Of a stretch of DNA of 27,288 nt, positions 744-27,226 are shown piece after piece (position 1 is the stretch's first letter; every line of letters begins with the position of its first letter). The notes under the pieces are model-generated. The model was given only the letters and a program-made list of their open reading frames with translations. It was not told the DNA's origin and did not search any database. A program made the translations under genes and the position numbers. The stretch comes from a virus (lineage: Duplodnaviria > Caudoviricetes): positions 1-27,288 of the IMG/VR virus record IMGVR_UViG_3300025598_000143; one strand, written 5' to 3'.

Positions 744-1163
744 ATGAAGCATCATTCTGAACATCATGGTCACCATGCTCATGGCGGTCATGCTCATCAC
801 ATGGTTAAGAAGCATTCTATGCATACGATGAAACGTGCTGCCCACAAAAAGGGTGGTAAGGTTGAGTCGCCAATGCATGGTGAAGTAGACGAAGATCCAA
901 CGCCAAAGGAAGTTTACGCTGGCGCTGGTTCGCATACCGTACACGAAGCAGAAGAAAAGCATGCCGCCCGTAAACGCGGTGGCCGTACTCACAAGGCGCA
1001 TAAGCACCTTGAAATGCACGGCAAGCATGCTCATCACCGCCTTGACCGCCCTGCCCGTAAATCGGGTGGCGCAGTTGCTGGCGGCGCTGAAATGCGTCCT
1101 TTCTCCGCAGCCAACAAGGTTAAGACCCCTGCTGGCCGTATGGTGGAGCCGGGGGAGTCGTAA
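744..1163 (+). CDS. His/Lys-rich small basic protein with four x-[A/K]-x-GG motifs (putative internal head protein)
   Basis: AAGGAG RBS at 732-737. 24 His in 139 aa by hand count. Motifs are HAHGG, HKKGGKV, RKRGGRT and RKSGGAV. Confidence 0.8.
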   Translation: MKHHSEHHGHHAHGGHAHHMVKKHSMHTMKRAAHKKGGKVESPMHGEVDEDPTPKEVYAGAGSHTVHEAEEKHAARKRGGRTHKAHKHLEMHGKHAHHRLDRPARKSGGAVAGGAEMRPFSAANKVKTPAGRMVEPGES

Positions 1164-1366
1164 GCCGTCAGCATCATGCTGATGGCGGCGGAGCGAAGTG
1201 GATTCAGGGTGCTATCAAGCATCCCGGTGCGCTTCACCGACAACTTCACGTTCCGGCGGGGGAGAAAATCCCCGCCAAGAAGTTAGCTAAGGCGGCGCAT
1301 AGCACGAACCCTACTCTTGCTAAACGCGCCAAACTTGCTCAGACGTTGAAGAAAATGCACGATTAA
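1160..1366 (+). CDS. Small basic phage protein (...SRQHHADGGGAKWIQGAIKHPGALHRQLHVPAGEKIPAKKLAKAAHSTNPTLAKRAKLAQTLKKMHD); start undefined
   Basis: Not in the ORF track. The frame is open 1124-1366 and fills the gap exactly. The WIQxAIKxPGAL...KIPxxKL...KRAxLAxTL pattern resembles small proteins I recall from phage structural regions. No ATG/GTG/TTG precedes the conserved part, so the start coordinate is provisional. Confidence 0.65.
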   Translation, partial: VSRQHHADGGGAKWIQGAIKHPGALHRQLHVPAGEKIPAKKLAKAAHSTNPTLAKRAKLAQTLKKMHD

Positions 1367-1369
1367 GTG

Positions 1370-1394
1370 GGGGGCTGCGGCCCCCTTCTTTCTT
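1370..1394 (+). terminator. Putative Rho-independent terminator or attenuator
   Basis: GGGGGC-TGCG-GCCCCC stem-loop (1370-1385) followed by TTCTTTCTT, just after the TAA at 1364-1366. Confidence 0.6.
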
Positions 1395-1405
1395 CGGAGG
1401 ACCAT

Positions 1406-1651: not shown

Positions 1652-1652
1652 C

Positions 1653-1897: not shown

Positions 1898-1899
1898 TT

Positions 1900-4157: not shown

Positions 4158-7100
4158 ATGTCAAATGTTTCCATTTCCAATTTACCATCTGTAACATCGG
4201 CGCAATCCAGTAGCCAAGTTCCTGCGGTACAAGCGGGAACTACCGTTTATCTGACCGTAGACCAGATTGCGCGATATACGCAGCAAACGTACCCAATTAC
4301 GGGCATTACTTCTATTACCGCTCAATCTCCGTTATCTGGCGGCACTATTACGTCGTCTGGAACGATTGGCTTAACAACGGGTAATTTGACCAATAATTAT
4401 TTGGCAAATATGCCCTCCAACACAATTAAAGGGAACAATACTGGTTCCTCTGCTACGCCTTTGGATTTGACTGCTGCACAAGTGCTTTCAATGATTGGCG
4501 CAGGAACTGTTTCTTATGTAGCTACAGGTTCTGGTCTATCTGGCGGTCCAATTACAACTACTGGTACAATTTCTATTGCCGCCACAGGTGTTACATCTGG
4601 AACTTACGGATCAGCATCTACCGTTCCTGTAATTGCGATTAATTCGCAAGGGCAAATTTCATCCGCGGCCAATACCAATATTTTGATTCCATCGGGTCAA
4701 GTTACTGGCCTTGGAACAATGGCGACGCAAAATGCAAGTTCTGTTGCTATTACTGGCGGTAACATCAATGGTACTACCATTGGCGGGACAACTCCGGCAG
4801 CGGCTACGTTTACGGCGCTTACAGCAACGGGTACAACCAATCTTGGTACAATTGCATCCGGCACATGGAATGGTACTGCCATTGCTATAGCTTATGGCGG
4901 TACGGGTGCTACAACTGCATCAGGTGCGCGAACAAATCTTGGGGCGGCTGCTTCTGGCGCAAATAGCGATATTACCAGTCTGACTGGTCTGACTACTCCT
5001 CTTGCTGAAACAGAGGGCGGAACAGGTTATGGATCGTATACAACAGGTGACATTCTTTATGCTGCGTCATCTTCCACCTTGGCCCGTCTTAATGACGTGG
5101 CTACTGGCAATGCTCTTATTTCTGGAGGGGTCGGTGTTGCTCCGTCTTATGGTAAAATTGGTCTTACTACTCATGTAAGCGGCACATTGCCTGTTGCCAA
5201 TGGCGGTACGGGCGCGACCACATTAACGGGTTATCTTGTAGGCAATGGAACAAGCGCAGTAACGGCTGTGTCTACAATTCCAAATGCCGGGCTAACCAAC
5301 TCATCCATTACAATTGGTTCAACCGCAATTTCACTGGGCGCTTCAGCATCCACGTTGGCAGGTTTGACAACAGTTACGGTTACGCAAGACCCAGTTTCTG
5401 CATTGCAGTTGTCCACCAAGCAATATGTTGACGGCCAAGTCGCATCGGTCAGCAATACGACCTACCACACTGCGGCGGCTGCGGCGACAACCGCCAATTT
5501 AACTGCAACTTACAACAACGGAACTGCTGGTGTTGGCGCGACGTTGACCAATAGTGGGGCGCAAGCGGCATTTGCGGTTGATGGTTATACCGCATCGTTG
5601 AATGATCGCATCCTTGTTAAGGATATGACGACTGCCGCTTATAACGGCATTTACACGGTTACTACGGTTGGTTCCGGCGCGACAAACTGGGTTTTGACCC
5701 GCGCAACTGACTTTAATACAGTTGGCACTGGCCCTAATTACATTGAAACTGGCGCTGGTGTATTTGTTTCTGGCGGCACAACATGGGGTTCAACCTCATG
5801 GGTGATGAATACAACTGGCACGATTACGGTTGGTTCTACGTCCCTTGTGTGGGTACAGACATCGTCGGCAGGTAACATTGCTGTATCTGCGCCAATTACC
5901 AAGACGGGCAATACCATCGGCCTTGGCACGGTAGGCGTTGCAAATGGTGGCACAGGTTTAACGTCATTAACGGCATATGCGGTATTGTATGCCGCAAGCA
6001 CGTCATCCGTAGGCCAGATATCGCCATCCACTACGGGTTACCCGCTGCTTTCTACGGGCGCTTCAACGGCTCCTGCGTTTGGTCAGTTGTCCTTAACGGC
6101 GGGTGTGACGGGTACGTTGCCCGTTGGCAATGGCGGCACGGGTACGGCAACAGCGTTTACCACCGGATCGGTTGTATTTGCGGGAGCGTCTGGCGTATAT
6201 ACGCAGAACAATAGCAAGTTTTTCTGGGACAATACTAACTTCCGTCTTGGTTTAAATACCGCTACACCACAAACGACCTTAACAATAGTTTCTGCCACCC
6301 AATCTACAACGCCAACTGCGTCACTCCCAGCAGGTACGGACCTGTATATTGTCGGCGCAAATGCTGCCAATACCCGCATCACGCAAGACGCTTATGGTAC
6401 TGGTGTCTACGGTGTGTTTACGGCACGGCAAGCCCGTGGCACAGCGGCATCTCCTACTGCATCGCAATCCGGCGATTTCTTGGCGCAGTTTACGGCCCGT
6501 GGTTATGGTGCGACTGGATTTGGCACAGCATCTACGGGTTACATTGCATTTTCTGCGGCGGAAAACTTCACGGATACGGCGCAGGGTACGTATGCGGGTA
6601 TTTACACAACACCAACGGGCAGCAACTCAATTGCTGAAGTATTTCGGTTTGGCCCGGCTGGCCAATTAGGTATTGGCGGCGCTACATACGGCACGTCTGG
6701 TTATGTACTTACTTCTGGCGGCGCATCTGCTGCTCCAACGTGGTCGCAAGTTTCTGCTACGGCTCTTAGTGGCACGGTTCCAGTTGCCAACGGTGGTACT
6801 GGTCTTACGACTTATGCGGTTGGTGATCTTCTTTATGCTTCCGGCACAACAACTTTGTCCCGTCTTGCGGATGTAGCAACGGGTAACGTGTTATTGTCCG
6901 GCGGCGTGGGCGTGGCTCCTTCGTGGGGTCAAGTCTCCCTTACAACGGCTGTTACTGGTACGCTTCCCGCCACAAATGGTGGTACAGGTCAAGCATCCTA
7001 TACCATTGGCGATCTGCTTTACGCATCATCAACTACGGCACTTTCCCGCCTGTCTGATGTTGCCACGGGTTCTGTTCTTGTGTCTGGCGGCACGTCCACT

Positions 7101-8612
7101 GCTCCAGCATGGTCATCGTCGCCAACAATCACTGGCACAACAACGTCTGGCTACTTCATTGCGAACGGTGCGATTACATCGTCCCTTAATGCTGGTGCTT
7201 ATTCCTATGGTACGTTGGCTTATTCTGACACTAACATCTTCTTGTCGCTTACCTCATCGGTGAATAGTTACAACCAAATGGTATTGCAAAATACCAATTC
7301 AGGTTCCTCTGCTTCTACTAACTTCATCGTTTCCAATAATAACGGAACCAACAGCACGTACTTTGGTGAATTTGGTATGAATTCATCAGGGTTCACGGGT
7401 TCTGGTGCATTCAACGGTGCAAATAACGTATATTTGGATGCAACATCTGCTGATCTTGTAATTGGAACAACGACTGCAAACGCTGTCCACTTTGTCGTGA
7501 ACAGCGGCGCGACTGACGCAATGACTATTGCATCCGGCGGGACAGTGACAATTGGTACGCTTAACCTTACCAATGCGCTTGGCACGGCCTACGGCGGTAC
7601 AGGCCTTACGTCGTTTACCTCTGGCGGCGCGGTTTATGCGACATCTACGTCCGCATTAACAACCGGAACGCTTCCAATCGCATCGGGCGGCACGAATAGC
7701 ACCGCAACCCCAACTGCTGGCGGTGTTGGATACGGCACGGGTACGGCTCATGCCTATTCTGCGGCGGGTACTTCTGGACAGCCTTTGATTTCTGCGGGAT
7801 CAAGCGCACCTGCATTTGGAACGCTTGCCCTTGGTACGGCCAACACCAACGTAAGTGGTACGTTGACGGTTACTAACGGTGGTACAGGTGCTGCCACATT
7901 TACTGCCAACGGTGTTATTTACGGTAACACAACAAGTGCATTAGGCGTCACCGCCGCAGGTACTACTGGTCAGGTATTGATTGCCACGACAAGTTCCGCA
8001 CCTACGTGGGGTCAGGTATCATTAACTGCTGGTGTAACTGGTACATTGCCTGTCGCTAACGGCGGAACGGGTGCCACAACACTTACTGGTGTGCTTAAAG
8101 GCAACGGCACAAGCGCAATCACGGCGGCTACGGCAGGTACGGATTATGTTGCTCCGGGTACAGCCACGACATTTACCGCCACACAGACATTTTCTGGTTC
8201 GTCATCCGTTTTGGCGGCGATTGCTACCAACATTGCGGAAGTAGCAACTGTATCTGCAACGGCTGCTACGGGTACAATTAACTTTGACGTAACCACGCAG
8301 TCTGTCTTGTATTACACGTCATCTGCGGCGGCTAACTGGACACTGAATATACGCGGCAGTTCAGGAACGTCATTAAATACACTTATGTCTACGGGTCAGT
8401 CCATTACGATTGCGTTCTTAGTGACCAATGGTGCTACCGCCTATTACCAGACAGGTTTTACGATTGATGGAACATCCGTCACACCAAAGTGGCAGGGTGG
8501 TACGGCCCCATCAGCAGGTGACGCCAGTTCAGTTGACATATATACTTTTAGCATTGTTAAGACGGGTTCGGCTGCGTATACCGTCTTTGGCACAGTAACC
8601 AAGTTTGCATAA
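4158..8612 (+). CDS. Long tail fibre protein (1484 aa)
   Basis: Thr/Gly/Ser/Ala-rich with about 11 GTLPVANGGTG-type repeats, a DRILVKD...NGIY...WVLTRATD module and a C-terminal 141-aa beta domain. Confidence 0.85.
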   Translation: MSNVSISNLPSVTSAQSSSQVPAVQAGTTVYLTVDQIARYTQQTYPITGITSITAQSPLSGGTITSSGTIGLTTGNLTNNYLANMPSNTIKGNNTGSSATPLDLTAAQVLSMIGAGTVSYVATGSGLSGGPITTTGTISIAATGVTSGTYGSASTVPVIAINSQGQISSAANTNILIPSGQVTGLGTMATQNASSVAITGGNINGTTIGGTTPAAATFTALTATGTTNLGTIASGTWNGTAIAIAYGGTGATTASGARTNLGAAASGANSDITSLTGLTTPLAETEGGTGYGSYTTGDILYAASSSTLARLNDVATGNALISGGVGVAPSYGKIGLTTHVSGTLPVANGGTGATTLTGYLVGNGTSAVTAVSTIPNAGLTNSSITIGSTAISLGASASTLAGLTTVTVTQDPVSALQLSTKQYVDGQVASVSNTTYHTAAAAATTANLTATYNNGTAGVGATLTNSGAQAAFAVDGYTASLNDRILVKDMTTAAYNGIYTVTTVGSGATNWVLTRATDFNTVGTGPNYIETGAGVFVSGGTTWGSTSWVMNTTGTITVGSTSLVWVQTSSAGNIAVSAPITKTGNTIGLGTVGVANGGTGLTSLTAYAVLYAASTSSVGQISPSTTGYPLLSTGASTAPAFGQLSLTAGVTGTLPVGNGGTGTATAFTTGSVVFAGASGVYTQNNSKFFWDNTNFRLGLNTATPQTTLTIVSATQSTTPTASLPAGTDLYIVGANAANTRITQDAYGTGVYGVFTARQARGTAASPTASQSGDFLAQFTARGYGATGFGTASTGYIAFSAAENFTDTAQGTYAGIYTTPTGSNSIAEVFRFGPAGQLGIGGATYGTSGYVLTSGGASAAPTWSQVSATALSGTVPVANGGTGLTTYAVGDLLYASGTTTLSRLADVATGNVLLSGGVGVAPSWGQVSLTTAVTGTLPATNGGTGQASYTIGDLLYASSTTALSRLSDVATGSVLVSGGTSTAPAWSSSPTITGTTTSGYFIANGAITSSLNAGAYSYGTLAYSDTNIFLSLTSSVNSYNQMVLQNTNSGSSASTNFIVSNNNGTNSTYFGEFGMNSSGFTGSGAFNGANNVYLDATSADLVIGTTTANAVHFVVNSGATDAMTIASGGTVTIGTLNLTNALGTAYGGTGLTSFTSGGAVYATSTSALTTGTLPIASGGTNSTATPTAGGVGYGTGTAHAYSAAGTSGQPLISAGSSAPAFGTLALGTANTNVSGTLTVTNGGTGAATFTANGVIYGNTTSALGVTAAGTTGQVLIATTSSAPTWGQVSLTAGVTGTLPVANGGTGATTLTGVLKGNGTSAITAATAGTDYVAPGTATTFTATQTFSGSSSVLAAIATNIAEVATVSATAATGTINFDVTTQSVLYYTSSAAANWTLNIRGSSGTSLNTLMSTGQSITIAFLVTNGATAYYQTGFTIDGTSVTPKWQGGTAPSAGDASSVDIYTFSIVKTGSAAYTVFGTVTKFA
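4872..8075 (+). repeat. Degenerate protein-level repeats (GTLPVANGGTG and the longer GDLLYAS..TxLSRLxDVATGxxLxSGG unit) in the tail fibre
   Basis: Short motif near 4872, 4995, 5180, 5925, 6110, 6770, 6957, 7572, 7665, 7857 and 8040; longer unit near 5040, 6815 and 7000. Coordinates are approximate and the DNA is diverged at synonymous sites. Confidence 0.8.
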
Positions 8613-11074: not shown

Positions 11075-11075
11075 C

Positions 11076-12142: not shown

Positions 12143-12381
12143 CGTTAGACTGGCAGCAAATTGTTGATATTCTCATTACGGCGGGGTTTGCTTGTGTAGG
12201 GTATTTTTATGCCCAAATCATTGCGGATGCCAAAAAAGACCGTCAAATGTTGAATGATTTGCGGGTTGATTTGCCAACAAAATACGTCAGCAAAGATGAT
12301 TTAACTGCTCATTTAAATCGCATTGAAATGATGTTAAACAAAATTTGGGATCGTTTGGAGCAAAAGGTGGATAAACCATGA
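12139..12381 (+). CDS. Small membrane protein: N-terminal TM helix plus coiled coil (holin-like candidate)
   Basis: ATGA overlaps at both ends. Hydrophobic IVDILITAGFACVGYFYAQII followed by a charged heptad-like region (YVSKDD...RIE..L.KI.DRLEQK). Confidence 0.65.
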   Translation: MTLDWQQIVDILITAGFACVGYFYAQIIADAKKDRQMLNDLRVDLPTKYVSKDDLTAHLNRIEMMLNKIWDRLEQKVDKP

Positions 12382-14590: not shown

Positions 14591-16696
14591 ATGGCCCACG
14601 CAACACTTAAATTAATTCCGGGTGTTGATGTAATTAAGACGCCGACCCTCAATGAGGCGGCTCTTTCTTCCACAAATCTTGTCCGGTTCATGCCGGACCG
14701 CAATAACCTTGGCCTTGTTCAGAAGCTGGGCGGATGGGTCACATATTTTAACACCGCCTATTCTTCTACGATTCGGGCGTTAAAAGGCTGGGCGGACCTT
14801 AACGCGGTCAACCATTTGGCCGTAGGGGCGCAATCATCCCTTAACGTTTTGACTGGGAATAATAACGTTAATATCACCCCGCAGACATCTGTAACCAATA
14901 CCGCCCCTAATTTTTCCACGGTTTCGGGATCGACAACCGTTACGGTCATTGATTCCAACATAACTGCTTCGGTTCTGGATTACGTAAATTACGTTACTCC
15001 GGTGGCGGTAGGTGGCATAGTCCTTACGGGGTCTTATCTGCTTCAAACCGCATCTGGTACTCAATATACAATTACCGCAGCATCCCCCGCCACATCCACG
15101 GTAACCAATGGGGGCGCATCCTATACCTTTTCAACGATCAGTGGCTCTTCCATTGTAACCGCAGTGTTAAATAACCACGGGTACTCCGTAGGGTCGCAAT
15201 TTTATGTTGGTGTTTCTACCACCGTTGGTGGGTTAACTTTGTTTGGTTTGTATATTGTTGCTTCCGTAACAAATGCGAACACATTTACTTTTTCCGCCGC
15301 GAACAGCGCCACATCAACTGCTGGCCCGACATCTATTAATAGCGGTAACATAAATTCCAATTTTTATATCGCAATTGGCCCGCAACCTACGGGAACAGGT
15401 TTTGGTGTTGGTGGATTTGGTACAGGCGGGTTCGGTCTTGGAACTACACAACCATCCGTACCCGGTACGGCTATTACAGCAACAGACTGGTCTTTGGACA
15501 ACTTTGGCGAAAATTTAATTGCCAATCCTACGGGCGGCGCTATTTATTTTTGGTCCCCTTCTGGGGCGTTGCAAAACGCTCAGATCGTTGGTGGACAAGC
15601 ACCATTGGTTAATGACGGATGCTTTGTGGCGATGCCACAGCGGCAGGTTGTTGCTTGGGGGTCTTCGTTTACCTTGCAACCTGATCCATTATTGATCCGC
15701 TGGTCTGATGTGGGCGATAGTTCTGTGTGGATAGGAACAGCCACTAATCAGGCGGGTTCTTACCGTATTCCGCAGGGTTCCAAGATTGTTACGTGCTTGC
15801 AGGGTCCGCAACAGGGTTTAATTTGGACTGACTTAGACCTTTGGTCCATGCAGTATATCGGTGCGCCATTGGTGTACGGATTCAACAAAATCGGCTCCAA
15901 CTGTGGTGCAATCAGCCGTAAATGCGTCGGTCAATTGGGTAACGTCATCTATTGGATGTCCCAGAAACAGTTCTTTGTTAATGCTGGTGACGGCCCTAAG
16001 CCGCTGCCTTGCCCTGTCTGGGACGTTATTTTCCAAAATTTAAAATCAGGAAATGATGGCAATGGCATCCCTTATACACAGCATATCCGTTGCGCCCCTA
16101 ATTCACAGTTTAACGAAATCATGTGGTTCTACCCTTCCGCAAACGGAAACGGAGAAAATGATTCCTATGTTAAATACAATACGGTTCTCAACCAATGGGA
16201 CTTTGGCTCTTTGGGTCGTTCTGCTTGGATTGATCAATCTGTCCTTGGGCCTCCCATTGGTGCTGGCACTGATAACTACTTATATCAGCACGAAATAGGT
16301 AATGACGCGGCGGTTGGTAACACCACGACCGCTATGGCATCCTCCATGCAAACGGGCTTCTTCAGCATTGCTGAAGGCGACCAGATCATGTTTGTGGACC
16401 AGATTTGGCCTGACATGAAATGGGGTACGTATTCTGGCAACCAAAACGCTACCGTGTACGTAACTTTGTACTGGACCAACTATCCGGGCGATGCGACGGT
16501 TACGACTGGATCGTATTCAGGGTTCCCAAGCAATTCCGTGTTTTCCGCCACATTTCCAATGACACAGGCAACGGAATATATTTCTTGCCGTATCAGGGCG
16601 CGTTTGATTGCGGTTAATATTTCATCACAAGACGTAGGCACATTCTGGCGGCTTGGCGGCATACGCTACCGCGCAAGTGCGGATGGGAAATACTAA
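14591..16696 (+). CDS. Putative tail nozzle/tail tubular B-like (beta-propeller) protein
   Basis: 701 aa with KLGGW, WSLDNFGE.LIA, IRWSD...W...TNQAG and FWRLG..R.....DG motifs. Size and position fit podovirus nozzle proteins. Confidence 0.7.
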   Translation: MAHATLKLIPGVDVIKTPTLNEAALSSTNLVRFMPDRNNLGLVQKLGGWVTYFNTAYSSTIRALKGWADLNAVNHLAVGAQSSLNVLTGNNNVNITPQTSVTNTAPNFSTVSGSTTVTVIDSNITASVLDYVNYVTPVAVGGIVLTGSYLLQTASGTQYTITAASPATSTVTNGGASYTFSTISGSSIVTAVLNNHGYSVGSQFYVGVSTTVGGLTLFGLYIVASVTNANTFTFSAANSATSTAGPTSINSGNINSNFYIAIGPQPTGTGFGVGGFGTGGFGLGTTQPSVPGTAITATDWSLDNFGENLIANPTGGAIYFWSPSGALQNAQIVGGQAPLVNDGCFVAMPQRQVVAWGSSFTLQPDPLLIRWSDVGDSSVWIGTATNQAGSYRIPQGSKIVTCLQGPQQGLIWTDLDLWSMQYIGAPLVYGFNKIGSNCGAISRKCVGQLGNVIYWMSQKQFFVNAGDGPKPLPCPVWDVIFQNLKSGNDGNGIPYTQHIRCAPNSQFNEIMWFYPSANGNGENDSYVKYNTVLNQWDFGSLGRSAWIDQSVLGPPIGAGTDNYLYQHEIGNDAAVGNTTTAMASSMQTGFFSIAEGDQIMFVDQIWPDMKWGTYSGNQNATVYVTLYWTNYPGDATVTTGSYSGFPSNSVFSATFPMTQATEYISCRIRARLIAVNISSQDVGTFWRLGGIRYRASADGKY

Positions 16697-17117: not shown

Positions 17118-18878
17118 ATGAGCGACATGTACGGCAATGAAGACGATCCAACCAACGGAGGCTCATACCTGCCGTCGCTCCCTAAGCTGTATCAAAAGAT
17201 TTTTGCCCAATTAGGCATGAATGGCCCTGCAAAACAGGCGGATACGTCTACCCTTGTCCCGCCACAGGGTATGCAGGATTTTTACAATTCTGCATTCAGT
17301 GCTTTAGGTTTCCCGCCATCGCCCCGCAATCCTAATCGGATACAACGGTATCCTGACCATCCGGGTGCGGCTCAAGCCGGATTTGGGCCATATGGAAGAA
17401 TATCGCCGCCTAATGAAAATTATGGTGTTGGATTAGATTTTTCTGGTTACTCTCCTGCAAACGCAGTAAAAATTAATAGAAATATTAACCAAACATATGG
17501 TTCAAGGGGTTACGGCGCTGGTCCTTATGAGTCCACGCAACAATATCCAGATAGACAAATATTTTCTGACCAGCCCAGTGTAGGCGATGCCTCGACTATG
17601 CCTGTTTACCCGCAGCGTCAGTCCCGCCCACCAATGTATACGCCGCCAGAGACAAATGTGCCTATGCCGTCTTTTGCAACAGGTAGGTCGTCGCAACAGG
17701 TTACTGATCCGTTGCAGCGCACAATGCTTGGTTTGGATGACGATGGAACGGAAACAACACAGCCATCCGGCGGGTCGCAGCTTTCTGATCCACGGGCTGT
17801 GAGGGCGTTAGACCCATCTGCACGTCCTTATCGCCCACGTCCGGATGAGGGTGGAGGTTCCGACAACGCTCCTTTAATTACCAGTGGCATGATTCCATCC
17901 ACGGGTCGGGCGCATATGACATCGCCTATTATCCCCAAAGATGCCGCCGCATCTAAGGGTCGCGCCCACATGTCGGCACAATCTCAAAGCCAACCTGATT
18001 TACCCGCATCTAAAGAAGCTGGTGATACGGGTGAATTTCTTAACAATGATCCCAACGATATGCGTCCGGGTTCTTTGGGCGAGGCCCGTAAATTGTTTCC
18101 GGGCCGCAAATTACAGCAAGCTATCTATTATACTGAGCCAAACGAAGAACATGGTGGCGGTCAAATGCGCCGTCTTGGTGTAGGCGCAGATACCAGCAAA
18201 CTTAATCCTGATTATATTGCACGTATTTGGGAACCTGCGGATATGTCTGGCGGGGAAAGATTTATTCGGGGTGCATATGAGACACCGGGCAAAAACCCAC
18301 TTACATACACGCCTGAAATGGCTTCTGGCGGAGCGGCTGGACAGGCTGATAAAATTGCCCGTGAAAAGGCGACCCCTTGCCATGTTGGTCCTATTACTAT
18401 GGCAGTTGGTGGGCGTACTGACCATATTCCTATGAACGTGCTTGAAGGTTCATATGTGTTACCAGCAGATATTGTTTCCGGATTGGGCGAAGGCAATACG
18501 CTTGCTGGTACTAAGCTGATCAACAATATGTTTAGCAGTGGCCCATTTGGTGTTGGTGCAAAAACCCCGCAATTCTCAGCTTTGCCTAAGCCTAGCTTGG
18601 ATGAGTATGGCTCTATGCAAAAAATGTTTAACACTCAAAATTTAGGGCAAATTAACGCTGCTCAAAAAGCTGATGGCGGCCCTGTAATGTCGGGCAAATA
18701 CCGCCCAGTTCCTATCGTTGCTGCTGGCGGCGAATACGTCATTCACCCTGATGATGTTAAGAGATTGGGTAATGGCGATATGGAAAGAGGACATGATTAT
18801 CTGGACAATTTCGTAAAAGGCGTCCGTAAGCACCTTGTTAAAACTCTTAGCAAATTGCCGGGACCAAGGAGAGATTGA
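17118..18878 (+). CDS. Putative internal virion protein: Pro-rich disordered N-terminus plus conserved C-terminal core with GG motifs
   Basis: GGAGG RBS. Core motifs GRTDHIP....GSYVLPADIVSGLGEGNTLAG and VPIVAAGGEYVI; MASGGAA at 18318 and KADGGPV at 18666. Confidence 0.7.
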   Translation: MSDMYGNEDDPTNGGSYLPSLPKLYQKIFAQLGMNGPAKQADTSTLVPPQGMQDFYNSAFSALGFPPSPRNPNRIQRYPDHPGAAQAGFGPYGRISPPNENYGVGLDFSGYSPANAVKINRNINQTYGSRGYGAGPYESTQQYPDRQIFSDQPSVGDASTMPVYPQRQSRPPMYTPPETNVPMPSFATGRSSQQVTDPLQRTMLGLDDDGTETTQPSGGSQLSDPRAVRALDPSARPYRPRPDEGGGSDNAPLITSGMIPSTGRAHMTSPIIPKDAAASKGRAHMSAQSQSQPDLPASKEAGDTGEFLNNDPNDMRPGSLGEARKLFPGRKLQQAIYYTEPNEEHGGGQMRRLGVGADTSKLNPDYIARIWEPADMSGGERFIRGAYETPGKNPLTYTPEMASGGAAGQADKIAREKATPCHVGPITMAVGGRTDHIPMNVLEGSYVLPADIVSGLGEGNTLAGTKLINNMFSSGPFGVGAKTPQFSALPKPSLDEYGSMQKMFNTQNLGQINAAQKADGGPVMSGKYRPVPIVAAGGEYVIHPDDVKRLGNGDMERGHDYLDNFVKGVRKHLVKTLSKLPGPRRD

Positions 18879-19351
18879 TGGATTATCCCGTCAGATTAGC
18901 TACTCTTAAAGATGCTGATGATATTATGGTTCTTCTTGCTTTAATGCATGAAGAAAATGGTCTATTTGAAATGGACTATGATGCCGTTCGGGACATGGTA
19001 ACCAACGTATTAAGTGGCAAAAATGGCATCATTGGCGTTATCGACGGTGAAGAAGGTTTGGAGGCGGCTGTTTGCCTTGTTATTGACAAGCTTTGGTACG
19101 CTAAGACTTGGTGCTTAAACGACGTTTTTAACTTTGTTGCGCCTAAATATCGTCGTTCTACAAGGGCAAAATCGTTAATTTCTTTTGCCAAAAACTACTC
19201 TGATCAGGTGGGCATCCCCCTTTTGATGGGTATTGTTTCTAACGTTCGGACAGAAGCAAAAATTAAACTGTTGGAACGTCAAATGAGTAAAGCTGGTGCG
19301 TTCTTCATTTACAATCACGTAAATGAAAAACCTGATAACCACGTACAGTAG
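18878..19351 (+). CDS. GNAT-like acyl/acetyltransferase
   Basis: TGATG coupling with an AG-rich RBS upstream. VRLATLKD start and FVAPKYRRSTRAKSLISFAK motif-A-like segment. Confidence 0.7.
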   Translation: MDYPVRLATLKDADDIMVLLALMHEENGLFEMDYDAVRDMVTNVLSGKNGIIGVIDGEEGLEAAVCLVIDKLWYAKTWCLNDVFNFVAPKYRRSTRAKSLISFAKNYSDQVGIPLLMGIVSNVRTEAKIKLLERQMSKAGAFFIYNHVNEKPDNHVQ

Positions 19352-19362: not shown

Positions 19363-22300
19363 ATGGGTTCATTATGCAGCGGGTTGTTTGGTTCACAGGC
19401 TTCGACGACATATCAAGCGCCGCAAGCCGTACAGAATGCTTTAACGGACATTCTTGGCCGCGCAGCAACGCAGTCTAATCAACCATATCCGCAATATACG
19501 CCTGACACTTCAGCGCAATACTCGCAATATAACGCCGGGTTGTTAGCCCCCATGACGCCCAATCAAGCTCAGGCTGGGCAATCAATCGCTGGGTTGCAAG
19601 GTTATACGCAACCTAATTTTGCTGCTGCAACTAATTTGGTAGGTGCTGCGGCTAGCCCATTGCAGATGCAACAGTTTTCGCAGAACGCTGTTAATCAATA
19701 CATGAATCCATATCTTAATGATGTAGTGGGTTCTGCTGTTGCCAATATTAACCAAACCAATGCCCAACAACAGCAACAAGTGCTGGGCAATGCGATCCAA
19801 CGGGGCGCATTTGGTGGCGACCGTGCTGGTATTGCTCAGGCCGAATTGGCCCGCCAACAAGGTCTAGCAAACAATGCAACAATTGCTAACCTTCTTGGGC
19901 AAGGTTACTCACAGGCTCAGGGCCAGTTTAACCAGCAACAGCAAACAGACCTTGCTACTCAGTTGCAAAATCGTAACTTGATGACCAATGCAGGTCTTAA
20001 CCTTGCAAACCTTGGCACACAGGGTCAGCAAGCCGCCTTGCAACAGGCTCAGGCTCAGTACGGATACGGTACGGCAGAACAGCAACAGCAACAGGCTGGT
20101 CTATCGACTGCTTATCAGCAATACATGAACCAACAAGCATTTCCTTACCAACAACTCAGCTACTACGCTGGCTTGGCATCTGGTGCTGCCCCGGCATTGG
20201 GTGGGACGACAACTGGTTATTCGCCTACGGTCAGTAACGCTGGTGGCTTGTTGGGTGGCTTATCCATTCTTGGTGGTCTTTCCAATCCCGGCGCAGTTTC
20301 TGCTTCCAATCCATATTCTGCGGCGTCGGCTGGCATTGGTGCGCTTACTTCCGGCTTTGGAAGTCTCTTTGGCTTAAAAGATGGCGGTCGCGTTGATAGG
20401 GCGTCTGGCGGTCGTGCTGCTTATGCAGATGCGGGTTCGGTTCAAATTAGCCCCGTAACTCAAGCATACAATGATTATAATGATGCAGTCGCTGCGGGCG
20501 CTCCGTATGATGTTCTGCAACAATTGTATCGTAAATATCAACAATCATTCCAAGGCGCTACACCTCCTTGGAAAGCCACGACGCCAGCCGCCGCGACATC
20601 TCCAACTGCCACAACGGCCACCACATCTTCCGCTCCGGGAGTTGTTGCTGCCGCAACTGGCGGGCATGGTGGTCAAGATCAAGGGGGGGTAACTGCTCGC
20701 AATGCCGCGTATTCCCCTGATTACACAAGTAGCAACGGCCCTGTAGGCGGCGGTGGTTATGGCCCTTATGATGCTGGTGGTGGTCCGGGTTCAGCGTTTA
20801 ATTCTGGCGGTCCATTAGGTGGTTTATTGAGTGGAATTGCAGCAGCGTTGCAGGGAACAACCAATGTAAATAAAACGCCTTATGATCCAAATTATACGGG
20901 CGTTGTGTCTTCGATGGGGCCAGAAATGGCAAAAACCGGGTATGTCGCATATGATCCGGCTTCTGACCAAATAGTAAATAATTATGGTGGATACAGCGGG
21001 ATTCCTGCTTCAACATCCGCCTTGGATCAAAACACCGGACCATCTGCCGATTTAGCGGGTTCAAAACTTGACTCATCTGGCAAAACTATTAACCTTGGCG
21101 ATTTAAATGCTGCTTATGGTTTGCCAGCAGGTTATCTTGGTGGTCAATTGTATAAAGAAAGCGGATTTAATCCGGACGCAACAAGCAGAGAATCTAGCGC
21201 ACAAGGGCTTGCTCAATTTACAAAAGGAACGGCGGCTTCAATGGGCGTCGACCCACGTGATGTTGTGTCCTCTGCATATGGTGCAGCAACTCTTGGGCAA
21301 CAAAATGCCGCTGGCCTTGAAGCAAGAGGCATTCCCGCTACTGCTGAAAACCTTTCTCTAGCGCACCAATTTGGTTTAGCTGGCGCTGCGGCAATTATTA
21401 AAAATCCAAACAGCACTATTTTTGATGCGTTAAAAACAGTTCAAGACGAAGACAAAGCGTTGGCCGCTGTCACTGGTAACAAATACAATATTTCTGACAC
21501 TGCAAGATCAGTATATGACCGTGTTTCCCGTGATTTTATTGCAAGTATGCGGGCTGCTAATGAAAAAGGTTTGGATATACCAACCCGCACATTAGAAGCG
21601 CCAAGCCTTTCCAATCAACCTGAAAATGTACAGCAACGCGAAAATGCAGCCAATGCCGTTGCGGATGCTGCATCAAAAGGCGTTCTTGCAAGTGGCGTGT
21701 CTGGTGTTTCTGGCCTTACTGACCAAGGCGGTATTGGTAATGCCGGATATGGCCTTGGGTTAGCGGGGGACAAAATATCTCCGTCGACATCCGCGACTGG
21801 ACCAACAGGGTTTTTTGACAATAACGCGACCCCATCGCCTTCTCAAAATTCATCAACTACGGCTGGTGGGTTGTTTGGTGGTGCTGCACCGTCTACTTCT
21901 GCTACAGGCCAAGGCGGGATGTTTGACAATAATTCATTGGATCGTACTGTTTCAGAAACTGATAATAGTTCGAATGAATCCGGCAGTTCGTTGGGTGGCC
22001 GTGGTATTGGCCCATCTGTTGCAGAGCATGAAGATAGTGGCGGCGAAGGTGGCGGTGGCAACAATGCCCGTGGCGGGTTAATCCATGCCCATCATAAACA
22101 CCATTATGCAGATGGTGGTTATGCTGCATTCCATATGCAATATGGCATGCCTACAAGCGAAGATATTGCTCAAACGGCATCTGATTATGCGGGTTCTGGC
22201 GCTGGTGTTTTGAATCCACAACTTGAAGCGTTAGCAGCAAAAGGCGTTCTTCCTTCCGCTAAAGGTGGACGTATCCATGCTCAAACAGGCGTTGGCATTT

Positions 22301-24048
22301 CTGCTGATGAAACGCCAGTTGTCCATAGTTGGGATGAGCCAGACGACAATGCACAGGTTTCAAAAAACAAGCTAACAACGGCCACAGCGCCTGTTGTTGA
22401 AAGCAAATTTAAAACACCTTTGCAACAGCTAGGTAGCACCATTTCAAGCGCAGTAAAAAGTGCTGATGAATATATTGCACCAAAGGCTGAAGAGGTGGTT
22501 AAAGCTGCTACAGAACCACAATATGTTCCTGACCCAAATTACGTTGCTCCAAAGTATCGTTCTATGGAAAATGCTGGACCGTATGATGCCGCTCCTGCAA
22601 AAGCGGCAGAATTAAGGAAGGCATCGGGAACGTATACCAAGCCATACGAAAAAACTCAGCCGATTGATCCTGCCAAATCATTTGCTGTGGATCAAGGCGC
22701 AGATAATGTTGCTGACAAAGGTCAAGAGGCCACACCAGCCGCATCGGCAACGCCTATTGCACGGCAACGTGATGTCGCCCCCGGCATTAAAGAATGGTAC
22801 AACGCACCGCCTCCTGCCGATATGCGTCAAATAGCTGCATTAAATTTCGGTGCTAACTTGCTTGCTGGCGGTGATTTTGGTTCTAACCTTGCCCGTGCAG
22901 GGCACGACTACGCCAATACAATCCTTGCACAGCAGGATCAGCAACGTGCCACGATGCGGAATGAATCTGAGTCTGCGCTTCAACGGTCGCAGGGCATTGA
23001 AGCTGGTGCAAGAACAGCCAAAGAACGCATTCAGCCAATGGGCCTTGGGTATTCTATTGTTTCTGGCACAGGCACTCCGGACGACCCAATCATTCTTACT
23101 GGTATTCAAGGCGCAGATGGTCAAGCTGGCGGGACAAACGTTCAGGGCGGCGCTGGTGGCGTTGGCGGAAAAACCGCACAGATTGTAATGAAACAGCCAT
23201 ATAGCGGCGAAACCTATGTGCCTGATTTCTCCGACAATCCACAGGCGCAACAAACCGCTGCTGCTAATATAACGATGCTTGCCCATCAGGCAAAGGCAGC
23301 TATGCCCATGCAAACTGAGTTGGCGAAAAAGAATTATGAATTATCTCAAGCTGAAGTTCAGGCGGCAAGACAAGATGCCCGTGCTGCTGCGGATAATATC
23401 GTTCCTTATAAAGAAGTTATGGATGCAATTCATGTTATGCCACAGGGTGGACCTCTTTCTCCGGGTTTAACGGGTAAGGCTCGTTATGCCGCAATTGCTG
23501 GTTTAAATGATGCTGCAAGGGCTGTTGGTATTGATCTTGGTTTGACAGATTCAATGTCGGCTGTGGATATTATGAATAAGTTCGCGACTGCCGCCGCAAA
23601 TCAAACGTCTGAAAGCCGTGCAGCTAAGTGGCTTGAAACAACCGCCGCTTCCTTGCCTAGCATTGGTTTGAATCTTCCAACAATGCAGAAGCTGGCCGCT
23701 AACCAATTTACCGCAGCGCATACGAAACAAATGTATGCCAATACGATTGCTAAATTGGCGGCGGAGTCTGACGGTCAGGACCGCGACATGACAGGTCATT
23801 TCTATGCGGTCAATCCACGTCAGAACCAAGTCAAAGTTCAAAATGCTATTTACAAACTAATGAATGCCCACCAGAAGGAAGGTGGCAAGCCTGATGGTGC
23901 ATGGATAAAGAATCCAGAAACTGGCCGTTATGAAACACCAATTTCTATGTTCCAAAATGGTTTCTTGACGCCAGAACAATTTGACAAAATATCGTATGAT
24001 TTGACTGGTATGAAGAATATGTCTTCGGTCTTCGGCGCTGGAGAATAA
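19363..24048 (+). CDS. Large DNA-ejection/internal virion protein with embedded lytic transglycosylase (SLT) domain
   Basis: Gln-rich N-terminal region (YMNPY, GAFGGDR); SLT-like YGLPAGYL...KESGFNPDA...SAQGLAQF...AHQFG at about 21085-21560; several GG motifs. Confidence 0.8.
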   Translation: MGSLCSGLFGSQASTTYQAPQAVQNALTDILGRAATQSNQPYPQYTPDTSAQYSQYNAGLLAPMTPNQAQAGQSIAGLQGYTQPNFAAATNLVGAAASPLQMQQFSQNAVNQYMNPYLNDVVGSAVANINQTNAQQQQQVLGNAIQRGAFGGDRAGIAQAELARQQGLANNATIANLLGQGYSQAQGQFNQQQQTDLATQLQNRNLMTNAGLNLANLGTQGQQAALQQAQAQYGYGTAEQQQQQAGLSTAYQQYMNQQAFPYQQLSYYAGLASGAAPALGGTTTGYSPTVSNAGGLLGGLSILGGLSNPGAVSASNPYSAASAGIGALTSGFGSLFGLKDGGRVDRASGGRAAYADAGSVQISPVTQAYNDYNDAVAAGAPYDVLQQLYRKYQQSFQGATPPWKATTPAAATSPTATTATTSSAPGVVAAATGGHGGQDQGGVTARNAAYSPDYTSSNGPVGGGGYGPYDAGGGPGSAFNSGGPLGGLLSGIAAALQGTTNVNKTPYDPNYTGVVSSMGPEMAKTGYVAYDPASDQIVNNYGGYSGIPASTSALDQNTGPSADLAGSKLDSSGKTINLGDLNAAYGLPAGYLGGQLYKESGFNPDATSRESSAQGLAQFTKGTAASMGVDPRDVVSSAYGAATLGQQNAAGLEARGIPATAENLSLAHQFGLAGAAAIIKNPNSTIFDALKTVQDEDKALAAVTGNKYNISDTARSVYDRVSRDFIASMRAANEKGLDIPTRTLEAPSLSNQPENVQQRENAANAVADAASKGVLASGVSGVSGLTDQGGIGNAGYGLGLAGDKISPSTSATGPTGFFDNNATPSPSQNSSTTAGGLFGGAAPSTSATGQGGMFDNNSLDRTVSETDNSSNESGSSLGGRGIGPSVAEHEDSGGEGGGGNNARGGLIHAHHKHHYADGGYAAFHMQYGMPTSEDIAQTASDYAGSGAGVLNPQLEALAAKGVLPSAKGGRIHAQTGVGISADETPVVHSWDEPDDNAQVSKNKLTTATAPVVESKFKTPLQQLGSTISSAVKSADEYIAPKAEEVVKAATEPQYVPDPNYVAPKYRSMENAGPYDAAPAKAAELRKASGTYTKPYEKTQPIDPAKSFAVDQGADNVADKGQEATPAASATPIARQRDVAPGIKEWYNAPPPADMRQIAALNFGANLLAGGDFGSNLARAGHDYANTILAQQDQQRATMRNESESALQRSQGIEAGARTAKERIQPMGLGYSIVSGTGTPDDPIILTGIQGADGQAGGTNVQGGAGGVGGKTAQIVMKQPYSGETYVPDFSDNPQAQQTAAANITMLAHQAKAAMPMQTELAKKNYELSQAEVQAARQDARAAADNIVPYKEVMDAIHVMPQGGPLSPGLTGKARYAAIAGLNDAARAVGIDLGLTDSMSAVDIMNKFATAAANQTSESRAAKWLETTAASLPSIGLNLPTMQKLAANQFTAAHTKQMYANTIAKLAAESDGQDRDMTGHFYAVNPRQNQVKVQNAIYKLMNAHQKEGGKPDGAWIKNPETGRYETPISMFQNGFLTPEQFDKISYDLTGMKNMSSVFGAGE

Positions 24049-24049
24049 A

Positions 24050-27000
24050 ATGGATAATCAAGATTTATTGGGTTCGTTTTCATTAGACAGCCACGTAGCC
24101 TCACAGGGCAAAGCGCCTTCTGGAGGCGCTGGTGCTGCGCCGGAAAAAGCCCCTGATAATATTGCAAGTTCATTTTCTTTGGACGAGCCATCTGGCGTAA
24201 CTGCCCAAAGACAACAAAAAGAACAAGAAACAAAAACCAAACAGTATAAAGATACGACTGCATCTGATGTTGCAAAAGGTCTTGGTTCCGGCATTGAATT
24301 GGGCGCTGCTCAAATTGTTGGCCTACCCGGCGATATCGCCCGTGCTGGACGTTATTTAAAAGAAGAAGGTACATATTACGGCAAGAAGGCGTTAGAGAAT
24401 TACGGCTATCTGCCGGAAGGAACCGCTGACGAAGACTGGAAAGCCGTAGAAGAGGCCCGCCAATCTCCTAACCGTGGTTGGGTCGGCCCATTGCCTAGCA
24501 GTGAAGTGACGGAAGCTGCCGCCAAGAAGTATTTGCCGGGGGCTAGTTATGAACCTGAAAGCCGTGGTGGCGCATATGCTCATACCATTGGTGAATTTGT
24601 CCCGACTATCCTTGGCGGCGAAGGTTCCGCTATTAAGAAGCTTGGTACGGCGGCTATCGCTGGAGCAGGTTCTGAAGCTGCGGGACAGGCTACCGAAGGC
24701 ACACCTTATGAAGGCATCGCCCGTATAGGTGGCGCTTTGGTTTCGCCGTTTGCCGCAGAGAAAACGCTTTCACGTCCATTAGGTTCCGTTGGCTCCGCCT
24801 TGGGTGTTAGCGATCAGGCTTTAGGGGCTGTTGGTCTAAAATCCGGCAACATGGCGGCATATGATAAACTTGTCAGCGAAGGTTCACGATTAAGCAAACT
24901 TGGCGTATTGGGCGGGCTTTCAGAGGACAATATTAAGGCGATTGTTGAACAAGAAATGCGTGATGGTGTTCGCCCATCCGATTCAATTATTACAAGTGCT
25001 TCAGCATTGTCTGATTCACCGTCGGACATTGTGCGGGCATTTATTAAAAATTCGTCGTTGGAAAATCCAAAAGTCCGCGCCGAAGTGCAAAAATTGGTTG
25101 GCAATGTTGGTCGTGCCTCTGATACGGCGGATATGACGGCAACAAGAATATTGAATGATATGCAGGATGAAGCATCCGTTAATGCTTTAAATGCCCATCG
25201 TTTAGTTAATGGCCTTCCAGCCGATATTACTGAGGCTCCGACAGCGAACAAACTTCGCAGCGTTGCGGATGAAGTCAAAGACGGCGCATGGGACCGTTTG
25301 GTTCAACCAACCTATGATGACCACAAAGCCGTTAATAACGATCTTATTTTTGATAAATTGACAAAAGTTGGGCAAAAAAATCCAGATTTAATTTTTGATG
25401 CTCAGGAATTATACAATTCACGATTGGAGAATCGTGGAGAAAACCCCGTTACATTTTTAACAAAAGATCAGAATGGAACGTATAAAAATTTTGGTTATGT
25501 TGGAGATAATGGAACGGTAAAGGGCGCTCCTTTAGAATTTTTGGATATATTACAAAGAAAATTGTATCAGTCCAACGATGAAACAATGCAGTTAAATGCC
25601 AAAAAAATTAAGGAAGGCATTGATCAATATTTTACCCAAAAAGGGCTGCCCAATGAGTTACAGGCGGCCAAAGATGCTCATGGCGACATTCGTAGCCAAG
25701 GCAACGCAATTACGGCTGGAATGAATTTTATTTCTGATGGGGCGTATCAAACAAATCCATCAAAAAGACGGGCTTTTCTTGGCCGCTGGAATAATTTAGA
25801 CGATGTAGAAAAAGGATTGTACCAAGCAGGTGTTTTGCACCAGATTAAAGAAACCCTTGGGCAAGGGCAGCAGGGTTACAAAAACTGGAACAAGGTGTTG
25901 CAAAATGCGGATAACCGCCAATTGCTACAAGAAATCCTTAATTTCCGCCCAAAAGGCGCACCTGCTCAGGTGGGTCCAAGCAACTATGAGCGGTTTAGCA
26001 ATGCTTTGGATGTTGCCCAAGCATTCAAGAAAGAGCATGTAAACAATATTTTAATGAGTACTCCTGAGTCGCGTACATTCCTTGGTAGAATTTTGGGAAT
26101 GGGCGACAGGAGTTTATTCGACGTTATGTTGCATACGGCTTACCGTGGTGCATTCAGCCCAGAATTAGGCACAATAACTGCCCTTAGTGGCGGGTTAGGT
26201 TATATACGTCAGGTTTTTGCTGACCGTAGAGCATTAAAAATGCTTCAAATGTTTAATAGCAAAGACCCTCAGTTTGCAATGCAGCTTGCAAGGGATATTG
26301 CAACCCATAAAGAAGCAAAAACAAGCTGGCAAAAAGTTAAAGCATTGTTGGACTTTACCGACAAGGCTACCATTAACTTTTACCGCCGTGCTGCTGTTGC
26401 TGCCAATAACCAGCAGCCTCAACAACGCAAAGAAGGTGGTCGGGTAGATAATGATGCTGATGGATTTATTCCCCACAATGATCCTAAAAGACAAAAGAAT
26501 TTAGAAGCCTTCAAGCCAATTAAGGATGAAAAAGGCAATCCAAGGGTATTTTACCACGGCACAAACAAAAACTTTGACGTGTTTGGTCAGGGTAGGTCGC
26601 ATCCTCTTTTCCGCCCGCAACGGTTCCATTTTGTTTCGCCTAATCCTGAAATTGCAGGAGTCTTTGCCCATGACAGGGATAGCAGTCACATAGAAGGCAA
26701 TTACCCCGGCGAATCAGCGCAAAATATAATGCCTGTACATGTTTCAGCCAAGAATCCTTGGGATTACGAAAATCCTGATCATGTAAGCGCATTGATGTCA
26801 GAGGTTGTTAAAAGGCAGCCCGGATGGTCCCCTGAAGAGGCGGACCAAATGCATCATTACATTCATACCAGAGGCGGGTTTGATTTTATTGAAGACCCTC
26901 AACAACAAAAAATAATAAAGGATTTGGGCCACGACAGTTTCTATGTGCATGAAATGGGCGCTAAGAATTTAGCTGTCTATGATCCACGGCAAATCAAATC

Positions 27001-27226
27001 TGCCACGGGCAATAGTGGTCATTTTGACCCATCAAATCCCGACATTACCAAGGCAAAGGGCGGGTTTGTTGACCGTCCAAAGCGGGCAACGGGTGGCCGT
27101 ATTCCGGAAGTGGATAAATTATTTAAGGCTGCCAAAAAAGAGTTAGATAACTCCACTAAACCTATGCTTAATATGCATGATGACCACATCGTTAATGCTC
27201 TTAGGATTGCCCAAGGACGGATTTAA
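24050..27226 (+). CDS. Large DNA-ejection/internal virion protein with ADP-ribosyltransferase-like (polyvalent-protein type) domain near the C-terminus
   Basis: Gly/Ala-rich amphipathic N-terminal region. FYHGT...FVSPNPEIA...IMPVHVSAKNP...GHDSF...AVYDPRQIKSATGNSGHFDPSNPDI at about 26500-27049. Confidence 0.8.
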   Translation: MDNQDLLGSFSLDSHVASQGKAPSGGAGAAPEKAPDNIASSFSLDEPSGVTAQRQQKEQETKTKQYKDTTASDVAKGLGSGIELGAAQIVGLPGDIARAGRYLKEEGTYYGKKALENYGYLPEGTADEDWKAVEEARQSPNRGWVGPLPSSEVTEAAAKKYLPGASYEPESRGGAYAHTIGEFVPTILGGEGSAIKKLGTAAIAGAGSEAAGQATEGTPYEGIARIGGALVSPFAAEKTLSRPLGSVGSALGVSDQALGAVGLKSGNMAAYDKLVSEGSRLSKLGVLGGLSEDNIKAIVEQEMRDGVRPSDSIITSASALSDSPSDIVRAFIKNSSLENPKVRAEVQKLVGNVGRASDTADMTATRILNDMQDEASVNALNAHRLVNGLPADITEAPTANKLRSVADEVKDGAWDRLVQPTYDDHKAVNNDLIFDKLTKVGQKNPDLIFDAQELYNSRLENRGENPVTFLTKDQNGTYKNFGYVGDNGTVKGAPLEFLDILQRKLYQSNDETMQLNAKKIKEGIDQYFTQKGLPNELQAAKDAHGDIRSQGNAITAGMNFISDGAYQTNPSKRRAFLGRWNNLDDVEKGLYQAGVLHQIKETLGQGQQGYKNWNKVLQNADNRQLLQEILNFRPKGAPAQVGPSNYERFSNALDVAQAFKKEHVNNILMSTPESRTFLGRILGMGDRSLFDVMLHTAYRGAFSPELGTITALSGGLGYIRQVFADRRALKMLQMFNSKDPQFAMQLARDIATHKEAKTSWQKVKALLDFTDKATINFYRRAAVAANNQQPQQRKEGGRVDNDADGFIPHNDPKRQKNLEAFKPIKDEKGNPRVFYHGTNKNFDVFGQGRSHPLFRPQRFHFVSPNPEIAGVFAHDRDSSHIEGNYPGESAQNIMPVHVSAKNPWDYENPDHVSALMSEVVKRQPGWSPEEADQMHHYIHTRGGFDFIEDPQQQKIIKDLGHDSFYVHEMGAKNLAVYDPRQIKSATGNSGHFDPSNPDITKAKGGFVDRPKRATGGRIPEVDKLFKAAKKELDNSTKPMLNMHDDHIVNALRIAQGRI

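What the first reader, a model, noticed from the sequence alone, without database searches (positions are those of the whole stretch)
774..27103. Recurrent x-[A/K]-x-GG-x-[V/I/A] motif punctuating five unrelated internal proteins: candidate Gly-Gly polyprotein-processing or packaging-tag system
Seen in sequence: HAHGG (774), HKKGGKV (843), RKRGGRT (969), RKSGGAV (1056), HADGG (1175), MASGGAA (18318), KADGGPV (18666), LKDGGRV and RASGGRA (20374, 20398, then degenerate YADAGSV), NARGGLI and YADGGYA (22063, 22105), SAKGGRI (22255), RKEGGRV (26426), KAKGGFV and RATGGRI (27050, 27083). Copies are often paired, sit in basic/His-rich linkers and fall at domain boundaries. In this form they are concentrated in putative internal/ejected proteins rather than adaptor or nozzle proteins. 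Established knowledge: clan CE viral proteases mature virion polyproteins at Gly-Gly sites (adenain (M/I/L)xGG|x; ASFV pS273R GG|x). Inference: the motif is a maturation-protease site or capsid-loading tag that lets swappable cargo be packaged and released. No protease gene is visible in this window. I cannot confirm that the motif is undescribed.
Basis: partly seen in the sequence, partly recalled or inferred. Interest (0 to 1): 0.85.

Follow-up and report, generated by a model that had tools for sequence, protein, structure and literature searches.

The report
Gly-Gly joint marks on phage cargo
This freshwater-type short-tailed phage and its relatives put one short Gly-Gly signal at the joints between the swappable parts of the proteins they probably pack into the particle and inject; it is most likely a cut-and-address mark read by a small domain also found in phage lambda's tail ruler protein, though no cut and no enzyme have been shown.

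Summary
The motif is real at every stated coordinate: 13 copies in the internal-type proteins against 1.5 expected, 0 in 18 other ORFs. In relatives it marks head-cargo, basic core and ejection proteins, not nozzle, adaptor, scaffold or fibres. It sits between domains: 1 of 92 copies inside a Pfam domain against 15.3 expected. At the g21 joint, relatives have a stop codon, a self-cleaving S74 domain (20) or the motif directly (13 of 13 without S74). The g19 end domain is a doubled module also found in tape measure proteins, including lambda gpH, which is cut nearby by an unknown enzyme. Motif excess appeared only in genomes with this module (9 of 12; 0 of 15 without). No clan CE or prohead protease was found in two complete relatives, and the module matches no solved fold (80-81). 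Best reading: a cut-and-address signal read by the module (0.5); uncut docking tag 0.33. The scan noted a similar tag in a crassvirus and this g19 domain in two other genomes before.

The parts
744..1163 (+). g2, His/Lys-rich 139-aa protein right after the capsid genes; 4 motifs (774, 843, 969, 1056); predicted DNA-condensing core protein
   Evidence: 104 motifs in 34 of 34 homologues; no Pfam or PHROG hit
1163..1366 (+). g2b, basic module starting SRQHHADGG in the -1 frame at the g2 stop, without a standard start codon; motif at 1175; the same module is fused behind a GG motif inside the basic head protein of other relatives
   Evidence: weak Pfam Fusello_VP2_Capsid E 1.5e-5, below cutoff
14591..16696 (+). 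g17 nozzle/stabilisation protein: negative control and family marker (HTVC023P/CRP-901-like podophages)
17118..18878 (+). g19, 586 aa: variable front part plus constant C-terminal double module; motifs at 18318 and 18666
   Evidence: core family in 14 of 14 in-group genomes
18381..18533 (+). Module repeat 1 (G-R-T-D...G-S-Y-V); keeps the Asp (codon 18420-18422), lacks the Glu
   Evidence: Asp in 259 of 259; Ser/Ala at the Glu position
18666..18830 (+). Module repeat 2 (KADGG-P-V...A-G-G-E-Y-V); keeps the Glu (codon 18732-18734), lacks the Asp loop; its GG-x-V forms a predicted strand
   Evidence: Glu in 212 of 217
18875..19351 (+). g20 GNAT acetyltransferase, core gene, no motif
19363..24048 (+). 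g21, 1,561 aa: DNA-ejection (pilot) domain, residues 10-314, fused to cargo; motifs at 20374, 20398, 20422 (degenerate), 22063, 22105, 22255
   Evidence: phrog_4287 E 3e-12 (9)
20374..20442 (+). Triple motif at the end of the pilot domain, where relatives have a stop codon or an S74 self-cleavage site
24050..27226 (+). g22, 1,058 aa ejection-type protein; motifs at 26426, 27050, 27083; conserved C-terminal helical tail after the last motif
26525..27025 (+). ART-PolyVal domain between two motifs; similarity to the closest orthologue (68%) stops at residue 795, at the motif, and the domain instead resembles ART modules of head-cargo proteins
   Evidence: Pfam PF18760 E 3.8e-17 (8)

Best explanation
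[RKYFHLM]-[KA]-x-G-G-x-[VATI] is a recognition signal on proteins that go into the head or tail and are ejected. It is read by the small GG...D...GE(Y/F)V module (doubled in g19), and the chain is cut at or beside it during maturation or ejection, so that fused 'polyvalent' precursors fall into single enzymes (ART, M15 peptidase, lysozyme, InPase, GNAT), the pilot domain is freed, and basic core proteins become short peptides. Shown: distribution, boundary position, interchange with stop codon and S74, co-occurrence with the module, module homology to tape measure proteins. Inferred: presence in virions, binding by the module, the cut, and the Asp(repeat 1)/Glu(repeat 2) pair as one composite active site.
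For: Boundary position: 1 of 92 motifs inside a Pfam domain against 15.3 expected in 25 proteins; 11 of 15 ART domains have a motif within 25 aa after and 11 of 15 within 30 aa before (expected 1.6 and 2.0). Natural substitution at the g21 joint, 37 distinct sequences: 4 stand-alone proteins end there, 20 have an S74 domain starting there, and all 13 fused proteins without S74 have the motif directly, some in register (FF-SDRR against FF-ASGG) (counted by eye). Module plus motif recur in unrelated cultured phages H66 and AP1 and in tape measure proteins. Lambda gpH carries it with GG at 736-737; gpH is cut with gpH* put at 691-730 residues, site and enzyme unknown (PMC12617516, passages). Motif count at least twice the shuffled mean in 9 of 12 genomes with the module, 0 of 15 without or marginal, including same-family CRP-901 (0 against 3.3) and CRP-902. 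Complementary Asp/Glu retention.
Against: No peptidase family that could serve in 150 ORFs of G003 and G004; the module has no fold match (best VIA Z 2.9, rmsd 4.1, 72 aligned) and no His/Cys/Ser triad is evident; the JBD30 authors found no peptidase motif in this stretch and guessed a cut at its other end (PMC11445458 section 16). Lambda has Tyr at the Asp position, and its estimated cut lies a little upstream of the GG. Five cargo proteins end 2-10 residues after the GG, all keeping GG-x-V, where a cut frees nothing. Information is as high after the GG as before. Many S74-bearing proteins keep a GG-like motif after S74, so S74 may be just another inserted module. Capsid and scaffold, the usual prohead-protease substrates, lack the motif. 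HTVC023P, MinM2 and H66 have the module without genome-wide excess; the genomes are related, and five of the 12 helped build the profile.
Confidence: 0.5

Rival explanations
1. Uncut multivalent docking tag: GG-x-V adds as a beta-strand to the g19 module, or to portal or scaffold, and so loads cargo into the prohead and orders its exit. Fusion of once separate tagged genes leaves a tag at each joint.
For: Up to 10 copies in one disordered basic protein; 40 distinct pairs spaced 8 residues apart; copies at extreme N- and C-termini; constraint on both sides of the GG; in the model the module's own GG-x-V is a strand; no protease found; crAss001 cargo protein C1 is held on the portal wing, showing that docking of cargo exists (PMC10172136, passages).
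Against: One tag per protein would do, yet enzyme domains are fenced on both sides; interchange with stop codon and S74 at one joint suggests the parts must separate; both strand slots of the g19 model are filled in cis and the free upstream motif is not docked (pLDDT 54); Asp/Glu invariance is unexplained.
Confidence: 0.33
2. No reader: a flexible hinge or unfolding point for passage through the tail, spread because modules recombine at it.
For: Gly-Gly is flexible; module swaps end at the motif; GGC/GGT codons are over-used in it.
Against: Flanking Lys/Ala and Val/Ile/Thr are selected beyond composition; the DNA is synonymously diverse; it goes with the module across genomes; terminal copies have nothing to hinge.
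Confidence: 0.12
3. A DNA-binding repeat (basic residues around GG) that ties the proteins to the genome during packaging.
For: In g2 and the basic head protein the consensus is R-x-x-R-K-x-GG-R/K; g2b resembles fusellovirus VP2 weakly.
Against: In cargo proteins the form is often neutral or acidic (YADGGEV, FAEGG).
Confidence: 0.05

Closest known systems
Polyvalent proteins of phages (Iyer et al. 2017, PMC5512222)
   Same: Late-gene multidomain proteins with ART-PolyVal, InPase, GNAT, LPD23 and wall-lytic domains, proposed to be packaged and cut into units.
   Different: That paper proposes embedded zincin metallopeptidases as the cutter; none appeared in the Pfam scans of 29 cargo proteins. 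It names no Gly-Gly joint ('glycine' 0 occurrences in the main text; supplements not read).
Prohead-protease maturation in T4 and SPN3US/phiKZ (AXE sites; PMC10052503)
   Same: One short motif on several head and ejection proteins, often repeated; T4 propeptides also target proteins to the prohead core.
   Different: There capsid and portal are substrates, cuts mostly remove N-terminal propeptides, and a prohead protease is encoded. Here the motif is internal and terminal, capsid and scaffold lack it, and no such protease was found.
Adenain and ASFV pS273R (clan CE) Gly-Gly maturation (recalled, not from a call)
   Same: Gly-Gly sites fencing basic core peptides and polyprotein units.
   Different: No clan CE gene found; Lys/Ala rather than Met/Ile/Leu two before the GG; a conserved Val/Ile after it; bacterial virus.
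C-terminal module of tape measure proteins (lambda gpH 733-780, JBD30 gp46 1019-1057, Douge gp16)
   Same: Same AxGG...GE(F/Y)V module by profile match (E 9e-18 Douge, 4e-6 JBD30; lambda was in the profile), starting at the GG.
   Different: One or two separate copies inside a tail ruler; here a tandem pair with split Asp/Glu in its own protein, with the bare motif exported to many other proteins. The module is unresolved in the lambda and JBD30 maps according to the passages read.
S74 intramolecular chaperone/autocleavage domain (Pfam PF13884)
   Same: Occupies the same joint in 20 of 37 g21 relatives.
   Different: It cuts itself in cis (mechanism recalled); the window's g21 lacks it.

Membership tests
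Clan CE (adenain/pS273R-type) Gly-Gly maturation system | A clan CE cysteine protease encoded by the virus | tested here: not met
   No such Pfam family at E<=0.01 in 150 ORFs of complete relatives G003 and G004 (ORFs under 70 aa and 5 spanning fetch borders left out) or in the window. A divergent enzyme cannot be excluded by Pfam alone.
Clan CE (adenain/pS273R-type) Gly-Gly maturation system | Substrates cut directly after Gly-Gly | not testable with these tools
   No virion proteomics available.
T4/phiKZ-type prohead-protease maturation | Prohead protease gene in the head module | tested here: inconclusive
   No Pfam hit; the one conserved unknown gene between scaffold and capsid genes folded without a protease-like match (best Z 4.0, rmsd 4.7, 67 aligned).
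T4/phiKZ-type prohead-protease maturation | Capsid, scaffold or portal carry the motif | tested here: not met
   3 in 58 capsid, 0 in 49 scaffold, 4 in 82 portal proteins; exception: three copies in the 825-aa gene after TerL of DSL-LC04 (119).
Phage polyvalent proteins | Disparate effector domains (ART-PolyVal, InPase, GNAT, LPD) in one late-gene protein | tested here: met
   g22 (8); relatives.
Phage polyvalent proteins | Embedded zincin metallopeptidase as proposed processing enzyme (present in about 36% per the paper, so not obligatory) | tested here: not met
   None in 29 cargo proteins scanned; a separate SprT-like gene exists in MW202675 (87) but its family had only 12 members among the loci and was not seen in G003/G004 (122).
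Tape-measure AxGG...GEFV module | Profile match over GG strand, Asp loop and GE(F/Y)V | tested here: met
   g19 core to H66 gp59: hhalign 93%, E 3e-7; H66 domain to tape measure proteins; joint profile to three PDB tape measure chains.
Known peptidase folds | g19 module adopts a peptidase fold | tested here: inconclusive
   Model pLDDT 78 (74); no significant structural neighbour, only uncharacterised phage proteins in BFVD.

The most novel reading that the evidence does not exclude
The GG...D...GE(Y/F)V module is an unrecognised peptidase of new fold whose active site is formed between two copies. It is the missing enzyme that cleaves lambda gpH and many other tape measure proteins, and this podophage family has turned it into a stand-alone, trans-acting processor with a portable seven-residue signal that lets any enzyme be loaded, cut free and injected.
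Probability: 0.22. Interest if true: 0.92.

Novelty: new variant of a known kind. Interest (0 to 1): 0.7.

Why it matters
How podophages without a prohead protease select and process the proteins they inject is open, and how lambda gpH is cleaved is stated as unknown in a 2025 paper (PMC12617516). The motif gives a rule for spotting injected anti-host enzymes in a large family (1,192 clusters at 50% identity match the g19 profile at E<=1e-30) and points to two residues and one site that can be tested in cultured phages. A seven-residue loading or release tag would also be useful for phage protein delivery.

Tried and rejected
Gly-rich composition: rejected. DNA repeat origin: rejected, codons vary. 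Clan CE or prohead protease: not found. The conserved gene after the scaffold as protease: no Pfam or named Atlas family, no fold match, and CRP-901, which lacks the motif, has a similar-looking gene there. g19 model against PDB: no match; absence is not evidence of a new fold. The Atlas hint to crassvirus cargo protein 1 scored 0.85, a lead only; not followed by alignment. My early reading that HTVC023P lacks the module (blast clustering) was wrong: the profile finds it in gp79. A -1 slippery site for g2b: the G run is not conserved. PDB sequence searches with g2 and the g19 alignment found nothing. Papers on TM4 and Cluster O phages gave no cut site.
Full report
Setting. The window is the whole record (27,288 bases) and holds the virion module of a podophage: SU10-type adaptor, fibres, nozzle, GNAT and ejection genes. 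The nozzle's relatives are MW202675 (49%), DSL-LC04, CRP-901/902, MinM2 and HTVC023P/027P. The head genes lie upstream, so I used 245 related loci, 12 longer relatives G003-G014 (78-100% complete) and named genomes.

Observation. All sites are as written. With GG pairs fixed and other residues shuffled, the tight pattern occurs 13 times in g2, g19, g21 and g22 against 1.48, and 0 times in 18 other ORFs with a similar number of GG. Out of sample it concentrates in five families: multidomain cargo after the portal (143 in 64 proteins), a basic protein before GroES (374 in 60), g2 (104 in 34), g19 (64 in 56) and g21 (67 in 52), and is nearly absent from nozzle, adaptors, scaffold, capsid, portal and fibres. 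The 12 relatives and MW202675 carry 12-22 copies each (simple ORF calling, poor for G011). An unforced logo of isolated GG pairs in the basic proteins shows Lys/Ala at -2, Arg/Lys/aromatic at -3, Arg/Lys at +2 and Val/Ala/Thr/Ile at +3, with as much information after the GG as before; structural controls show none of this.

Position. In 25 proteins with Pfam domains (21 of the 29 scanned had a hit, plus g22 and three MW202675 proteins), 1 of 92 motifs fell inside a domain against 15.3 expected; only the best stretch per family was available, so domain cover is under-counted. ART domains are fenced: 11 of 15 after, 11 of 15 before. One MW202675 protein reads motif-GNAT-motif-M15-motif-unknown-motif-ART-motif-end. 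In g22, similarity to the nearest orthologue stops at the motif before the ART domain, which resembles head-cargo ART modules instead. The g2b module occurs alone or fused behind a motif inside the basic protein.

The g21 joint. Among 37 distinct relatives, the pilot domain ends at a stop codon in 4 outgroup phages, at the start of an S74 domain in 20, and directly at the motif in the remaining 13 (my regular expression missed five S74 starts and one motif, which I counted by eye). That S74 cuts itself at this Ser-Asp is recalled. This is the best argument that the parts are meant to separate. Against it, many S74 forms keep a GG-like motif behind the S74, so S74 may be one more insert.

A candidate reader. 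The constant end of g19 is in 14 of 14 in-group genomes and has 4,283 matches among 50%-identity clusters. It is two copies of a module found at the N-terminus of H66 gp59 and an AP1 protein, both with motifs, in HTVC023P, DSL-LC04 and MinM2, and in tape measure proteins. Repeat 1 keeps an Asp and lacks the Glu; repeat 2 the reverse (259 of 259 and 212 of 217 among 266 stored proteins, selected by the same family's searches); H66 and AP1 split them the same way. That pattern suggests one composite site; the distance could not be measured. The model (pLDDT 78) puts the module's own GG-x-V in a strand and matches no solved fold. Over 27 genomes, motif counts of at least twice the shuffled mean occur in 9 of 12 with the module (6 of 12 above the maximum of 100 shuffles) and in 0 of 15 without it or with a marginal hit; these are not independent and the module itself contributes one to three motifs.

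Protease search. Pfam over 150 ORFs of two complete relatives gave only S74 as a peptidase family. The conserved unknown gene before the capsid genes gave no protease-like fold. A host enzyme is not excluded.

Literature. Nine searches of an open-access library showed no description of this motif on phage internal proteins; subscription papers and all supplements were not seen, and the supplements of the polyvalent-protein paper could bear on this. Read: PMC5512222 (abstract, passages, sections 32 and 33: processing by zincin peptidases proposed); PMC12617516 (passages: gpH cut, site and catalysis unknown, residues about 690-817 unresolved); PMC11445458 (passages, section 16: residues 1022-1066 predicted as a hook, no peptidase motif seen); PMC10172136 (passages: cargo C1 bound to the portal, no cleavage mentioned); PMC10052503 (passages: AXE sites); PMC1796659 and PMC4351075 (passages: no cut site). 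Adenain, pS273R and fusellovirus VP2 function are recalled.

Earlier scan notes. One reports a similar tag on crassvirus cargo and favours an uncut tag; two describe this g19 domain in other genomes and read it as an anchor rather than an enzyme. I had the module idea before seeing them (note) and confirmed the duplication and the lambda homology; the S74/stop interchange, the boundary statistics and the split Asp/Glu make me weigh cutting somewhat higher than they did.

Verdict. A real, lineage-wide joint signal on predicted injected proteins, with a plausible reader in the window. It works like the motif-guided loading and maturation of T4 and giant phages but fails their membership tests and those of clan CE systems. 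Cut-and-address 0.5, uncut tag 0.33, hinge 0.12, DNA binding 0.05. New variant of a known kind; interest 0.7.

Noticed in passing
window 1158-1366: g2b has no standard start. In all related junctions printed it continues in the -1 frame exactly at the g2 stop (GTA-A, ATA-A or CTG-A overlaps): coupled re-initiation at a weak codon or a frameshift at the stop.
   Followed up: partly
window 27140-27226; L082 cargo genes: A second short helical motif, roughly D-x-x-V-x-x-A-L-x-(I/L/V)-A, recurs at the N- or C-ends of cargo and g22-type proteins; possibly a second address.
   Followed up: no
L083 36121-39829 (CRP-901): CRP-901 lacks both module and motif, but two cargo-like proteins share their own N-terminal (NP-x-K...LG) and C-terminal (L/F-S...G...GAL) segments, perhaps a different code.
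   Followed up: no
DSL-LC04 10344-12821: The 825-aa gene after the large terminase, in the portal position, carries three motifs.
   Followed up: no
L081 9188-12745 and other g21 relatives: An S74 chaperone/autocleavage domain, usually seen on tail spikes, sits inside an ejection protein in 20 of 37 relatives; L162 shows a decayed S74 start followed directly by the motif.
   Followed up: partly
window 10902-11684: HNH endonuclease gene among the tail genes.
   Followed up: no
window 4158-8612: Fibre g8 has 25 GG in V-A-N-G-G-T-G-type repeats, a different structural use of GG that does not match the motif.
   Followed up: yes
L082 19254-19643: A GroES-like gene is core to the family, between cargo block and scaffold.
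   Followed up: no
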